Position numbers and translations under genes: made by a program. Positions 49,142 through 55,730 of a DNA stretch of 64,000 nt are shown piece by piece. The stretch comes from the human T2T-CHM13v2.0 reference genome, Homo sapiens: NCBI GenBank assembly GCA_009914755.4, contig CP086569.2:15232001-15296000 (forward strand), written 5' to 3'. Position 1 is the first letter of the stretch. Each line of letters opens with the position of its first letter. Below the pieces are notes generated by a model that was given only the letters and a program-made list of their open reading frames with translations, had not been told where the DNA came from and searched no databases.

Positions 49142-49470
49142 TGATATGGCTTGAATCTGTGTCCCAACCCAAATCTCATCTCCAACTGTAATCACCAGTT
49201 GTGCAGGGAGAGACATGGTGGGAGGTGGTTGGATCTTGAGGGTAGTTTCCCCCATGCTGTTCTTGTGATAGTGAGGAAGTTCTCCCAAGATCTGATGGTT
49301 CAAATGTGACAGTTCCCCTGCTCTCCCTCTCCTTCCTGCCACCTTGTAAAGAAAGCTCCTACTTCCCCTTCACGTTTCATCATGATTGTAAGTTTCCTGA
49401 GGCTTTCTCAGCCATGTGGAATTGAGAGTCAATTAAACCTCTTTCCTTTATAAACTACCCAGTCTCAGGG
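49142..49470 (+). repeat. MaLR LTR (MST/THE1-like), 3'-truncated, abutting the HERV-K env end
   Basis: tgatatggcttgaatctgtgtcccaacccaaatctcatctccaactgtaatcaccagttgtgcagggagagacatggtgggaggtggttggatc...ttcttgtgatagtgaggaagttctcccaagatctgatgg...catgattgtaagtttcctgaggc...gccatgtggaattgagagtcaattaaacctctttcctttataaactacccagtctcagg. Confidence 0.8.
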
Positions 49471-51858
49471 TGTTCCTTACAGCATGCTAAAAACAAGCTG
49501 ATAAAACAGAGAAACATAATTCCAAAATTTACTACAGTGGAGGCCCCAATAGACTTAATCCAAGTCATGGGATTTAGTCCAGAAAGACTTTCTGCCACCT
49601 GATCTAATGCCTCAACTCCAGGCACAATGAATAAATGAGCCTGAGAGGCTTCAAAAATTTGTTTCTTTAATTTAGTTATGTCCAAGGATAAATTATCTTC
49701 CCTACCCAGAAGGTGTCCTTTGTCCATTTCCCATGAATGATCAGTCTCATTGTAGGAATGTGGTGTGATACAGAAATCAGAAGTATTCCAATCGCACTGC
49801 ATTTGCACGCGATGTTTGAGACTTACTACCCGATCTCCAAGCCAAATAACAGATTGTCTTAGATCATTAATTTGATTAGCTAATTTTTGATCGAAGCCTT
49901 GTTGAGACTCCACATTTGGTTGGAATTGGCTTGCCAATCATTAACAAAATGAGCCGTTTGAATAGATCGGTGTAATGCCAACCCAGCAGTGGTGGCCAGT
50001 GCAGTGACTGTAATTAGGTCCATGATCACAGCGATTAAAGTGAAAACAAATCTCTTAGATCTTTTAAAAATTCGTTGTAACACTTCATTAATTAAATGTA
50101 CTGAGGGGGAAGATTCCCAAGGTCTGGGTAAAGTTACTGGTATCTAGATTTCTTTTTGAGCTTGAACCAATATTACACTTTTCCAGGAGTCAAAACAGAA
50201 GTTAACACAGGTGTGTAAATGACAATTAATGCATGGGACAGTTTGATTGTTCATTCAAATTTTGATATTTCCCACTAACAGCATGTAAGGAGGCTTAACA
50301 CAACTCTGTATAGGAATATACAGGTTGGAGGTAAACAAAGCAGAATGTCTGAATCTACATTGATACTGAGGGAGAAGAGTGGCAGTGGCCATGCCCGATG
50401 TCCTCTGCTGTAAAGAAGCAATCTGAAGTGCCTGGGGATGCCAAAGAAGCAGAAGGGCATACCTAGGTTGAGAAGAATTATCATAAGGCCAATTGGAGTC
50501 CCATAAAGGAGGATTGGCATCACAAAGAGGAAGAGGATTCAAAGGGGATTTATCATGGTGTTCAGAATCACAGATGTGAGGGGCGGTAGTGGGGACAACA
50601 CACAGAAAAGTTTCCCCTTTCTATACTCGCAGTCCAGACATGGCAATCACCATTTTCCAAAATTCTTGGTGTTCTGGGCTCAGAATGGGGAATATCATAT
50701 GAGGCCTTGTGGGGGGTAATGCCCTTATGTTTCCATTTTAAGTGAAAGAATGAGCTGAACCTCCTATGCAAAGTAGGATGATGATCCTCATCCTCCCAAT
50801 AAGAAATAAAATAAGTAGTCTCCAGGCATTCCCTTCCATCAGAGAGGCAATTGTTTTTTAAATAGCCCTTTGGTACCGAGTCTATTACTAAACCATATGA
50901 GTCATTTTTTAATACTATTGCATCTGAGTTAACACAGTCTTCCCAAATTAAAGTTTTAGATGGGCCCTCAAAATTTTTAGGACATGTTTTTCCTACAGGT
51001 TTATATTGAAAGTATGGGGTATCTCCTATTACTCCCCCTTTCATTTGTCTTAAGGGAGACAGGGAGAGGCCAGTGACCAAATGTCTGAATTATCTTGTAG
51101 CTCATATCTTTGGAAGATAAGCAGCCTCCACTTGAGTTTCTGGATAGACACAACCAGGTGCATGTCTGAGGCAAAGAGGAGGGTATTTATAACCCATAGT
51201 AACATTAAATGCAGTGTCTTATTCTCCTGGTTGAGTGAGGCAATGGTCATCTGTGGCTCCAGGCATCCACACACTATAGTTAGTATGGATTTCTGCAGGA
51301 GCATCCATCCAGGTGAGAGGTCGAATGAGTGGAGGAAAAGGCACATAAGCCCAGTAAGAACAATTTTATGCAGCAGGTAAATCAGTTTTAGGGGACACTA
51401 GTGAGACATAAATTACAAGGAGGAAAATTATTAAATAAAACCTATTGTAAGTGAGACCCAGTGCTGAAGGAGGAAGAGAAGAATGGAGGGATGTTATTTT
51501 CAAGCTAATAGAAATGGTGAGATTTTTAAGTTTGTAAGGAGAAAAAGAAAGGTAATTAGGAGAAGTGGGATGAGTTAGAGGGGTCTCTGTTGCTATTACG
51601 GAGGATTGAATCAGACCCATTTTGATTTGGCTTGTCAGTTTCTGAGGAGTTGGCCCAGATCTCACTAGGTATGAGGGCAGTCTCTGATGAGGATGTCTTT
51701 TTCCTGGGGTTTTCATTGTCAGTATTCACATGAAGTTTAAGTCTTCTAGTGGCACCCAGACAGGGCATTGATGATCTCCTGGTGAAACACAAGCATACCT
51801 TCTTCCCCACTTTATAATTGTTCCAGCTTCCCAGATATTGGTTTGGGAGTTTTTCCAT
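49455..51858 (-). pseudogene. env: HERV-K env, nearly full length but frameshifted. Largest ORFs are TM 160 aa (49455-49937), furin site plus fusion peptide 67 aa (49880-50083) and SU 170 aa (50568-51080)
   Basis: About 70% identity by eye to HML-2 Env over TM. RSKR cleavage site, fusion peptide [23 protein letters not shown] and C-x-x-C DWNTSDFC are present. At least 4 frame changes. Confidence 0.88.
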
Positions 51859-52117
51859 AACACTGGCTTGCCTTCATTTAGGGAGAATTTTTTGCCTATA
51901 TAATGGCATTCAGCTGCAGTCAGAGTATTGTCTTTAGCAACATTTAGAAAATTTAAAGTAAATAATGCTGAATGTAATTGGGAGTGGGGAGTGGTTAAAT
52001 TATGTTTTCATTTTTCAGACATTTTGGAAATTGAGTTTTTAAAGTGTGATTGGCTCATTCCACCACAGCCTGTCCCTGAGGATTGTAAGGGATTCCAGTA
52101 TTATGGGAAATTACACA

Positions 52118-52342
52118 TTATTGCATAAATAAATCAAAAGCCTTACTAATATATCCAGGGGTGTTGCCTGTTTTTATTTGATATGGAAGACCCATAACTG
52201 CAAAGCAAGAATACTTATGTCTTTTAACATGGGCCATGATATAAGGCTGAATTGTACCCTTTTGACCATCAGGGCCAGTGTAAGGCAAGATAAATGTGCT
52301 CTGGTGAACTTCATTAGCTTTTCCAGCACCTACTAGTCTCAT
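52118..52342 (-). pseudogene. pol: Short pol remnant between pro and env. About 2.5 kb of RT/IN is absent
   Basis: Only ~700 bp separate the pro/dUTPase ORF from the env start; a 74-aa ORF has weak pol-like character. Confidence 0.4.
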
Positions 52343-52438
52343 GTTGGAGGGATGTTTAAGCCAGGAGAAAGGCCATAAATTAGAAGAAATAATAGAAACA
52401 TTAGCCCTGGTATATACTAGGCCCTCAAACTTTTTTCC

Positions 52439-54976: not shown

Positions 54977-55121
54977 AGTTACCCCAGACAATACACAGAC
55001 AACTCACCAATTTTCAGGGAGCAAACAAGCATTTCTGTGGACCAGACTGATGAACGTTTCACCACACCTACCAAAGGGAATCAGGTTCCCACATGCACTT
55101 AGGAAAAAGAAAACCACATTG

Positions 55122-55139
55122 GTGTGCCAAATATCAGGG
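55122..55139 (-). other. Degenerate tRNA-Lys-type primer-binding site (TGGCACACCAATGTGGTT vs canonical TGGCGCCCAACGTGGGGC)
   Basis: Minus strand reads ...ccctgatat TGGCACACCAATGTGGTT, just 3' of the LTR and about 145 nt upstream of the gag ATG. Confidence 0.6.
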
Positions 55140-55141
55140 AA

Positions 55142-55730
55142 TCCCACCTCCAATATTTCAATGTAGGTTCTTTCTATTTTCCATAATCAGACTGTGATGT
55201 CCACCTGAGCCACAAATCCATCAAGCTTTTATTAAGGATCTCAAAAGGGGAAGGAGTGTACAAACAGGGAGTAGGTCACATGCTTCAGGGGGCAAAAACC
55301 ACAGCAAAGATCACATGCTTCTGAGGAAACAGGACAAAGGGAAAAAGGCAGAAACTCCTGATAAGGGTCTATGTTCAGCAGTGCATGTATTGTCTTGATA
55401 GACATCTTAACAGAAAGTAGAGTTTGACAGCAGAGAACTGGTGTGACCAAAAATTTACCAGGATGGAGTTTCCCAATCCTAGTAAGCCTGAGGGTACTGC
55501 AGGAGACCAAGGTGTATCTCAGTCCTTATCTCAACCACATAGGACACACATTCCCAGAGCAGCTGTTTATAGAACTTGCCCCAGGAATGCATTTCTTTCC
55601 CAGGGTCTTAATATTAATATTATTTGCTAGGAAAGGAATTTAGTGATATCTTCCCTACTTGCATGTAGGGATTGCATTTATAGGCTCTCTGCAAGAAGAA
55701 AAATATGGCTCTGTTTTGCCCAATCCCACA
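55142..55730 (-). repeat. HERV-K 5' LTR (U5 end secure; upstream boundary approximate). Minus strand begins TGTGGGATTGGG and contains AATAAA near 55225
   Basis: Position relative to PBS and gag. TG..start candidate cccaca at 55725-55730. No matching 3' LTR copy is available to confirm the length. Confidence 0.5.

What the first reader, a model, noticed from the sequence alone, without database searches (positions are those of the whole stretch)
49465..55730. HERV-K(HML) provirus with pol deleted but env nearly full-length; 3' LTR absent and replaced by a MaLR LTR junction
gag (MA-CA-NC with two zinc knuckles), pro/dUTPase and env (signal region, SU, RSKR furin site, fusion peptide, TM with CX6C-type loop) are all readable. 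RT/IN are almost entirely missing: only ~700 bp lie between pro and env. The env TM ends at about 49465, partway through its cytoplasmic tail, and abuts a 3'-truncated MST-like LTR with no HERV-K 3' LTR. That implies a deletion spanning both elements or a recombination event. The PBS is a degenerate Lys type. Env similarity to HML-2 is about 70%, so this is another HML group.
Basis: partly seen in the sequence, partly recalled or inferred. Interest (0 to 1): 0.5.

Follow-up and report, generated by a model that had tools for sequence, protein, structure and literature searches.

The report
Defective HERV-K(HML-8) provirus, already catalogued
This is a decayed, non-coding copy of an ancient primate retrovirus (HERV-K group HML-8, MER11-type LTR) that has lost most of pol and its whole 3' end; it very probably matches a locus already listed in a published human catalogue, so it is ordinary.

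Summary
On the minus strand, window 56061-49482 holds a 6,580-bp betaretrovirus-like provirus: 5' LTR, Lys-type PBS, gag (MA-CA-NC), dUTPase-protease, the C-terminal half of integrase, and env. A 2,236-bp deletion joins protease directly to the integrase core at a CATG microhomology (52238-52235). It removes the protease C-terminus, the G-patch, RT, RNase H and the N-terminal ~100 residues of integrase. Env (744 codons, 7 stops, 2 frameshifts) stops at the last residue of its membrane-spanning helix. There it meets, through a 3-nt TGC overlap (49484-49482), an antisense MaLR LTR (49142-49484) that lacks its last 21 nt. No 3' LTR is present anywhere in the window.

The group is HML-8 (HERVK11/MER11), not HML-2. 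Env is 51% identical to HML-2 Env, and the env tail and LTR align to a published HML-8-derived sequence. Length, strand, single LTR and pro-ORF statistics match the catalogued human locus Yq11.221 (chrY:14374864-14381444, MER11A). The element is already known and of low interest. Whether the pol deletion is private or inherited is unresolved.

The parts
55132..56061 (-). 5' LTR, MER11 type (930 bp). It starts TGTTGCAGGAAGTCAGGGACCCC and ends CCCTGATA. TATAAA lies at 55682-55677 and 55571-55566; AATAAA lies at 55233-55228.
   Evidence: The start aligns to the start of the 3' LTR of paralog L001, right after its polypurine tract. The published HML-8 LTR-derived MER11 sequence aligns to 56060-55383 (70.8% over 695 nt, E 1e-80). 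Motifs.
55112..55129 (-). Primer-binding site, degenerate tRNA-Lys1,2 type (TGGCACACCAATGTGGTT), 2 nt after the LTR.
   Evidence: In one search it scores best against the Lys1,2 PBS (9, versus 5 or less for eight other tRNAs). The reference PBS sequences were taken from memory.
52906..54976 (-). gag (MA, p-rich linker, CA, NC). The ATG is at 54976, 156 nt after the LTR. About 3 frameshifts and 5 in-frame stops. CA is 53938-53351; NC with two zinc knuckles is 53343-52906.
   Evidence: Pfam Gag_p10, Gag_p24 N- and C-terminal domains, and zf-CCHC_5. Three-frame translation. Paralog L002 aligns to 54396-52235 at 81%.
52235..53026 (-). pro: dUTPase plus retropepsin. There is one in-frame stop (52441-52439). 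The active site DTG is mutated to YTR (52420-52403). The gene is cut after ...GTIQPYIM, losing the last ~70 codons including the G-patch.
   Evidence: Pfam dUTPase. PDB MPMV dUTPase 2d4l and protease 1nso residues 1-88. Intact relatives continue with PIPINLWGRDLL. Coordinates.
52235..52238 (-). Internal deletion junction: CATG microhomology joining protease to the integrase core. 2,236 bp are missing relative to the intact paralog L003 (L003 1316-3552): the PR C-terminus, G-patch, RT, RNase H, the IN zinc domain and the first third of the IN core.
   Evidence: Two blastn HSPs of L003 overlap by 4 nt in the window. Base-by-base display. L003 gene content (RVT_1, RNase_H, Integrase_Zn, rve).
51726..52234 (-). 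Integrase remnant: the C-terminal two thirds of the catalytic core plus the C-terminal domain. The second catalytic Asp is mutated (KTGNTPGY, 52174-52151), the catalytic Glu is followed by a stop, and there is one frameshift.
   Evidence: MMTV integrase 3jca residues 102-257, E 7e-33. 90.4% nt identity to L003 3552-3729.
49482..51716 (-). env, 744 codons, 7 in-frame stops, 2 frameshifts (near 50700 and 49900). Features: hydrophobic leader 51440-51393, SU, furin site KRSKR 50065-50051, fusion peptide 50050-49982, [12 protein letters not shown] 49883-49848, CX7C 49796-49770, membrane-spanning helix 49541-49482. The cytoplasmic tail is absent.
   Evidence: PDB HML-2 Env SU and TM at 1e-81. tblastn frames. 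Identities: 80.5% to L001 env and 51% to HML-2. Coordinates.
49482..49484 (.). 3' truncation junction: a 3-nt overlap (TGC on the provirus sense strand) shared by the env and MaLR sequences.
   Evidence: L001 reads ...TTTTTAGTGTGC|CAGACC, the window reads ...TTTTTAGCATGC|TGTAAGG, and the MaLR copies (reverse complement) read ...CAC(A/T)TGCTAATAAA. The published HML-8 env tail aligns down to 49480.
49142..49484 (+). MaLR (THE1/MST-type) LTR, antisense to the provirus. Its 5' end is intact (TGATATGG) and the last 21 nt are missing.
   Evidence: Alignment with two other MaLR LTR copies in the window (12921-13253 minus, 10684-10898 plus), which continue for 21 nt after ...TTAGCA.

Best explanation
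This is a fossil HERV-K(HML-8) (HERVK11 internal sequence, MER11-type LTR) provirus. It entered the germ line of an ancestral catarrhine tens of millions of years ago and has since decayed. It has no function.

Its structure is explained by two deletions.
1. A 2,236-bp loss joined protease codon ~264 to the integrase core at a CATG microhomology. This happened either by reverse-transcriptase template switching before integration or by microhomology-mediated deletion in the chromosome.
2. A chromosomal deletion with a 3-nt (TGC) microhomology removed the env cytoplasmic tail, the polypurine tract, the 3' LTR, an unknown length of flanking DNA, and the last 21 nt of a neighbouring antisense MaLR LTR.

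Every reading frame is broken, and the protease and integrase catalytic residues are mutated. The locus very probably is the catalogued human provirus Yq11.221 (chrY:14374864-14381444, minus strand, MER11A subtype).

Shown here: the domain content, both junctions to the base, the absence of a 3' LTR, the affinity to HML-8, and the coding decay. Inferred: the order and mechanism of the deletions, and the chromosomal identity.
For: Domain content.

HML-8 assignment:
- The HML-8-derived env tail plus MER11 LTR sequence published for SERV-K/MER11 (PMC11379458, supplement 16) aligns to window 49628-49480 (86.6%) and 56060-55383 (70.8% over 695 nt, E 1e-80).
- The last 60 Env residues are 78% identical to the HML-8-derived tail of macaque Env P0003, versus 52% to HML-2.
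- The LTR start encodes VAGSQGP, matching the env/LTR overlap described in that paper.
- gag starts 156 nt after the LTR, as in HERVK11.
- Base composition is T 30.5, G 18.7, A 27.7. The values reported for HML-8 are 30.6, 19.1, 27.7.

Catalogue match (PMC10194239): Yq11.221 is 6,581 bp, on the minus strand, has no LTR-based age, and has a pro ORF with 0 shifts, 1 stop, 264/335 aa and the stop at residue 196. Here the element is 6,580 bp, has a single LTR, and has one pro stop exactly 68 codons before the junction (264-196 = 68).

Deletion 1.

Deletion 2: paralog L001 continues for 91 nt of env and polypurine tract and then its LTR, where the window switches to MaLR. The MaLR truncation is shown.

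No other MER11 sequence is present in the window.
Against: - RT, the region that formally defines HML groups, is deleted, so the group assignment rests on env, the LTR and the catalogue match.
- LTR identity to the macaque-derived MER11 sequence is only 71%. The LTR is 930 bp, against a Dfam MER11A length of 1,266 bp (1,125 bp after the 141 nt that proviral copies lack). The MER11A subtype is therefore taken from the paper, not shown here.
- The chromosomal identity rests on numerical coincidences, not on a sequence comparison with chrY.
- No orthologous or empty-site sequence was available, so the size of the 3' deletion and its single-event nature are not demonstrated.
Confidence: 0.85

Rival explanations
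1. The pol deletion is not a private event at this locus. It was already present in the RNA genome that integrated: a pol-defective HML-8 variant copied with RT and IN supplied in trans, like the shared pro-pol deletion of SERV-K/MER11 or the recurrent deletions of HML-8 subtypes.
For: PMC10194239 reports that pol is lost in 16 of 24 MER11A proviruses while gag-pro and env are kept, and it discusses amplification of deleted progenitors. Several MER11A loci are 6.9-7.4 kb long, close to the ~7.6 kb this element would have with its 3' end restored. PMC11379458 describes a 2.26-kb pro-pol deletion shared by 32 SERV-K/MER11 proviruses. A 4-nt microhomology fits RT template switching.
Against: No relative with the same junction was found. 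The 22 hits to the junction peptide cover only the protease side or only the integrase side, and every one of the 14 sequences read that extends past the breakpoint continues into normal PR or IN sequence. The 18-20-nt junction searches in metagenome and genome contigs gave only chance bacterial matches. The MER11A locus 1p13.3 keeps 321/335 pro codons, so its pol loss starts elsewhere. These collections sample human DNA poorly, so the negative result is weak.
Confidence: 0.3
2. The env/MaLR junction arose because a MaLR (THE1/MST) element integrated into env, or through a larger rearrangement (an inversion or non-allelic recombination on the Y chromosome), rather than through one simple deletion.
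For: MaLR and HML-8 activity periods overlap by general knowledge of the families. Y-chromosome sequence is prone to rearrangement. Nothing in the window shows what originally lay 3' of the provirus.
Against: An integration would leave the complete LTR terminus (...CTAATACA) at the junction, with env continuing on the other side. Here the LTR lacks 21 nt at the junction, and its intact 5' end (49142) is flanked by non-retroviral DNA. No env tail or MER11 sequence occurs elsewhere in the window. Any such scenario still needs an additional deletion.
Confidence: 0.1
3. The provirus belongs to the sister group HML-7 (HERVK11D/MER11D) rather than HML-8.
For: The LTR length (930 bp) is close to MER11D (897 bp), and the leader length (156 nt) is close to the HML-7 reference (159 nt). 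No Dfam consensus was available to discriminate between the groups. LTR identity to the HML-8-derived MER11 sequence is only 71%.
Against: The HML-7 catalogue lists only three human loci with gag-pro retained. All three have pol domains, and their coordinates and lengths differ (Yq11.221 in HML-7 is 15973344-15982688, 9.3 kb). The element matches an HML-8 catalogue entry in four independent numbers. The env tail is 86.6% identical to a sequence published as HML-8-derived.
Confidence: 0.05

Closest known systems
HERV-K(HML-8) provirus Yq11.221 (HERVK11 with MER11A LTR), catalogued by Vargiu et al. 2016 and Scognamiglio et al. 2022 (PMC10194239)
   Same: Length (6,581 versus 6,580 bp), minus strand, only one LTR (no LTR-based age given), a pro ORF with no frameshift and one stop 68 codons before a truncation at codon 264 of 335, gag-pro and env kept while pol is lost (typical of the MER11A subgroup), and HML-8 base composition.
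   Different: Nothing detected. Identity was inferred from published numbers, not from a sequence comparison.
HERV-K(HML-2) (HERVK-int/LTR5)
   Same: Betaretrovirus-like layout: Lys PBS, gag with two zinc knuckles, dUTPase-protease in a -1 frame, and Env with an R-X-K-R cleavage site, fusion peptide and CX7C loop. HML-2 Env structures match at 1e-81.
   Different: Env is only 51% identical (SU 44%, TM 64%), and the membrane anchor region 52%. The LTR is MER11-type (starting TGTTGCAGGAAGTCAGGG), not LTR5.
SERV-K/MER11 of Old World monkeys (PMC11379458)
   Same: It shares the HML-8-type env C-terminus and MER11 LTR sequence (86.6% and 70.8% nt identity), and it also has copies with a large pro-pol deletion.
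   Different: SERV-K/MER11 is an HML-2 backbone that captured about 1.1 kb of HML-8. Here the whole element (gag, pro, IN, SU) is HML-8-like: 81-90% identical to paralogs L001-L003.
HERV-K(HML-7) (HERVK11D/MER11D)
   Same: Sister group with a MER11-named LTR of similar length (897 bp) and a similar leader.
   Different: The catalogued human HML-7 loci do not fit this structure or length.
MaLR LTR (THE1/MST families)
   Same: The 343-bp segment 49142-49484 aligns over its whole length with two other MaLR LTR copies in the window and starts with TGATATGG.
   Different: It lacks the terminal 21 nt. The subfamily (THE1 versus MST) was not determined.

Membership tests
HERV-K(HML-8) / HERVK11-MER11 | The RT (pol) sequence clusters with HML-8 in phylogeny (the formal definition of HML groups). 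| not testable with these tools
   RT is entirely deleted in this copy, and no reference RT set or Dfam library is available.
HERV-K(HML-8) / HERVK11-MER11 | MER11-type LTR. | tested here: met
   The published HML-8 LTR-derived MER11 sequence aligns from LTR nt 2 over 678 nt of the window (70.8%, E 1e-80). The subtype A/B/C was not tested here; MER11A is taken from PMC10194239.
HERV-K(HML-8) / HERVK11-MER11 | HML-8-type env transmembrane anchor/tail, with env overlapping the first ~25 nt of the LTR. | tested here: met
   86.6% nt identity to the published HML-8-derived env end, down to the truncation point. 78% aa identity versus 52% for HML-2. The 5' LTR start encodes VAGSQGP, the C-terminus of macaque Env P0003. 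The tail itself is deleted here.
HERV-K(HML-8) / HERVK11-MER11 | Internal layout and composition of HERVK11 (gag at ~156 nt; G-poor, T-rich). | tested here: met
   The gag ATG is 156 nt after the LTR. G 18.7, T 30.5, A 27.7% versus 19.1, 30.6, 27.7 reported.
HERV-K(HML-8) / HERVK11-MER11 | Presence in the published hg38 catalogue of 78 HML-8 proviruses. | tested here: met
   Yq11.221: 6,581 bp, minus strand, pro 264/335 aa with the stop at 196, versus 6,580 bp and 68 codons from stop to junction here. This is a match of numbers, not of sequence.
HERV-K(HML-2) | LTR5-type LTR and close (>80%) Env identity to HML-2. | tested here: not met
   Env is 51% identical to HML-2 Env P0006. The LTR aligns to MER11.
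Betaretrovirus-like ERV (class II) | tRNA-Lys PBS, dUTPase in pro, two Gag zinc knuckles, MMTV/MPMV-like PR and IN. | tested here: met
MaLR LTR (THE1/MST) | Full-length similarity to MaLR LTR copies with a TG...CA terminus. | tested here: inconclusive
   It aligns with two in-window MaLR LTRs and has the 5' TG end. The 3' CA end is deleted. The subfamily was not tested because no consensus library is available.

The most novel reading that the evidence does not exclude
The protease-to-integrase CATG junction marks a previously undescribed pol-defective HML-8 lineage that was mobilised in trans. This Y-linked copy, shielded from recombination, would then be one of several members. If so, the junction could serve as a marker for tracing complementation-dependent spread of HML-8.
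Probability: 0.15. Interest if true: 0.25.

Novelty: already known. Interest (0 to 1): 0.08.

Why it matters
It matters little. The locus is a dead retroviral fossil of a group that has been fully inventoried in the human genome, and its structure (gag-pro and env kept, pol lost, one LTR missing) is typical of the MER11A subgroup.

This check adds base-level definitions of the two breakpoints (CATG at 52238-52235; TGC at 49484-49482) and a corrected 5' boundary. These could help locus-specific HERV expression mapping on the Y chromosome, and they show that no Env, Gag, protease or integrase activity can come from this copy.

Tried and rejected
1. I tested whether the MaLR LTR is in fact complete, with the last ~25 nt of 'env' being MaLR sequence. 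The MAFFT alignment hinted at this. I rejected it because the same nucleotides occur in the intact env of paralog L001 and in the published HML-8 env tail, and they encode the conserved membrane-spanning helix.

2. I searched for relatives sharing the protease-integrase junction.
- A protein search with the 106-aa junction peptide found only one-sided matches.
- An 18-nt junction search in metagenome contigs gave 10 hits, none with any similarity to the window.
- A 20-nt degenerate search in prokaryotic genome contigs gave one chance hit in a bacterial MAG.

3. I searched for a second MER11 LTR or an env tail elsewhere in the window with three different queries and found nothing. The match of the L001 tail to 45246-45393 is an unrelated interspersed repeat.

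4. I tested the HML-7 assignment against that group's catalogue and rejected it.

5. The supplementary consensus sequences of the HML-8 paper are not held, so MER11A/B/C subtyping could not be done.

6. An Rfam scan of the whole window found nothing.
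Full report
**What is in the sequence**

The element lies on the minus strand. ORF listing and three-frame translation show, from high to low coordinates:
- an LTR
- a primer-binding site
- gag
- pro
- a fragment of pol
- env

Pfam recognises Gag_p10 (1e-4), Gag_p24 N- and C-terminal domains (1.6e-23, 6e-12), the betaretroviral zinc knuckle (6e-14), dUTPase (1.6e-8), HERV-K_env_2 (2e-12) and GP41 (6e-17).

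Frame-repaired translations match solved structures:
- HERV-K(HML-2) Env SU and TM at about 1e-81
- MPMV dUTPase and protease
- MMTV integrase (7e-33)

**Boundaries**

A paralogous copy recovered from a public assembly (L001) is 89.8% identical to window 52008-49487. In L001, env runs on for 91 nt, ends in a polypurine tract (AAAAAGAAAGGGAGAGA), and is followed by an LTR. The first base of that LTR aligns to window 56061.

- The LTR ends at 55132 (…CCCTGATA), giving 930 bp.
- Two bases later comes TGGCACACCAATGTGG. This fits the tRNA-Lys1,2 PBS best: 13/15 plus one inserted base, with both mismatches being CpG-decay transitions. It scores 9, against 5 or less for eight other tRNAs. The reference PBS sequences were taken from memory.
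- The gag ATG is at 54976, 156 nt after the LTR.

**Coding state**

- gag has about three frameshifts and five stops.
- The first zinc knuckle has His replaced by Tyr.
- The pro frame has no frameshift and one stop, but the protease active site DTG reads YTR.
- In the integrase remnant, the second catalytic Asp is Gly and a stop follows the catalytic Glu.
- env spans 744 codons with seven stops and two frameshifts.

Nothing can be expressed as a functional protein.

**The internal deletion**

The PDB alignments show protease residues 1-88 followed directly by integrase residues 102-257. Contig L003 is a paralog with intact dUTPase-PR-G-patch, RT, RNase H and IN. It aligns to window 53560-52235 (88.8%) and again from 52238 to 52061 (90.4%). 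The two alignments overlap by 4 nt.

The base-by-base display reads:
- left: …TATATCATG|CCAATCCCC
- right: …GAAGGCATG|GCCCATGTT
- window: …TATATCATGGCCCATGTT

So 2,236 bp are missing and the junction carries a CATG microhomology (52238-52235). The losses are the last ~70 codons of pro (including the G-patch), all of RT and RNase H, the IN zinc domain and the first third of the IN core. About 165 IN codons remain (52234-51726).

**The 3' end**

Env homology to HML-2 TM, to L001 and to the published HML-8 env tail stops at 49482-49480. This is immediately after …[16 protein letters not shown], the last residue of the membrane-spanning helix. Relatives continue with QTS(Q/R)RIL…GSQGP.

From 49484 downward the sequence is the reverse complement of a MaLR LTR. 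That LTR's sense strand runs from 49142 (TGATATGG…) to 49484. Two other MaLR LTR copies in the window extend 21 nt further, to …CTAATACA. The bases TGC (49484-49482) are shared by both partners.

I considered whether the MaLR LTR might be complete, with the env end only apparent. I rejected this because the same nucleotides are present in the intact env of L001 and in the published sequence.

No MER11 LTR or env tail occurs anywhere else in the 64 kb. Because both elements are truncated at the junction, one chromosomal deletion with 3-nt microhomology is the simplest account. It would have removed the env tail, the polypurine tract, the 3' LTR, intervening DNA and the MaLR end. A MaLR integration into env would have left a complete LTR terminus and env on the far side. 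Neither is seen.

**Which HML group**

Env is only 51% identical to HML-2 Env (SU 44%, TM 64%), not about 70%, but it is 80.5% identical to the L001 Env.

The macaque Env P0003 is HML-2-like except for its last ~90 residues, which resemble this element (78% versus 52% for HML-2 over the last 60 residues). PMC11379458 shows that this tail, together with about 750 bp of following sequence in SERV-K/MER11, derives from HERVK11 (HML-8) and its MER11A LTR, and that the last 25 nt of env overlap the LTR. The sequence deposited with that paper aligns to window 49628-49480 (86.6%) and to 56060-55383 (70.8% over 695 nt, E 1e-80). The LTR start encodes VAGSQGP, the C-terminus of P0003.

Leader length and base composition agree with the published HML-8 description.

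**Catalogue match**

The HML-8 catalogue for hg38 (PMC10194239) lists Yq11.221 at chrY:14374864-14381444, minus strand, subtype MER11A, 6,581 bp, with no LTR-divergence age. Its pro ORF is scored 0 frameshifts / 1 stop, 264 of 335 aa, with the stop at residue 196.

The present element measures 6,580 bp (56061-49482), lies on the minus strand and has a single LTR. Its pro frame has no frameshift and one stop exactly 68 codons before the deletion junction (264-196 = 68). I take this as the same locus with about 85% confidence. It is a match of numbers, not of sequence. The same paper states that most MER11A proviruses keep gag-pro and an almost intact env but have lost pol, which is the architecture seen here.

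**Is the pol deletion private or inherited?**

This remains open.
- For inheritance: the recurrent pol loss in MER11A, and the similar sizes of several MER11A loci.
- Against inheritance: none of the 22 proteins found with the junction peptide covers both sides of the breakpoint, and every one of the 14 sequences read that reaches it continues into normal PR or IN. In addition, locus 1p13.3 keeps 321/335 pro codons.

Junction searches in metagenome and prokaryotic genome collections returned only chance matches. These collections contain little human DNA, so the negatives are weak. I give about 0.3 to an inherited variant.

**Verdict**

The corrections concern the 5' bound, the integrase remnant, the env breakpoint and the identity to HML-2, and the group is now named. 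The element is an ordinary, already catalogued, non-functional HERV-K(HML-8) provirus. Novelty: already known. Interest: low.

Noticed in passing
L001 (ENA ERZ1033855, 336-2729) and L003 (ENA ERZ1034055, 729-3804): These HML-8-like contigs from metagenome assemblies carry much longer ORFs than any human HML-8 locus listed in PMC10194239. One has an env of 798 codons with no frameshift and one internal stop. The other has a 630-aa RT-RNaseH-IN(Zn) ORF plus a 258-aa dUTPase-PR-G-patch ORF. The host species is unknown. They may come from a primate in which HML-8 stayed active later.
   Followed up: partly
window 57712-58162 (also 57749-58249 and 57054-57133): A compound (TCTA)n microsatellite sits inside a 233-bp unit that is duplicated 1.9 times at 96% identity. 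There is also an (AT)40 run. If the window is from Yq11.221, this could be a Y-STR-like locus.
   Followed up: no
window 56222-56289 and 56337-56429: A local direct duplication (85-90% identical, about 70-95 bp) lies just upstream of the provirus 5' LTR, in the flanking DNA.
   Followed up: no
window 10684-10898 (+) and 12921-13253 (-): Two further MaLR LTR copies, about 69-70% identical to the one at the provirus junction. They were used here as references for the LTR end.
   Followed up: partly
window 49455-49937 (-): A 160-aa ORF reads from the env TM ectodomain through the membrane anchor into the MaLR LTR, giving a chimeric C-terminus …[13 protein letters not shown]. It has only a TTG start and lies downstream of env stops, so it is almost certainly not expressed.
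   Followed up: no
P0003 (macaque 'ERVK-25 Env') versus window 49661-49482: The mosaic nature of the macaque Env (HML-2 body, HML-8 tail) is directly visible in the identities (78% versus 52% over the last 60 residues). This agrees with the published SERV-K/MER11 recombination.
   Followed up: yes
P0027 (ENA): An ORF fuses Alu-derived sequence and a poly-Lys (poly-A) run directly to the HML-8 integrase core at …[11 protein letters not shown], a few codons from the breakpoint used in this provirus. This is probably an Alu insertion or a 5' truncation in another copy.
   Followed up: no
window 45246-45393 and 43730-43801: Short similarity (about 72%) to the non-LTR tail of contig L001. From memory it looks like an L1 3' end fragment. 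It is unrelated to the provirus.
   Followed up: partly
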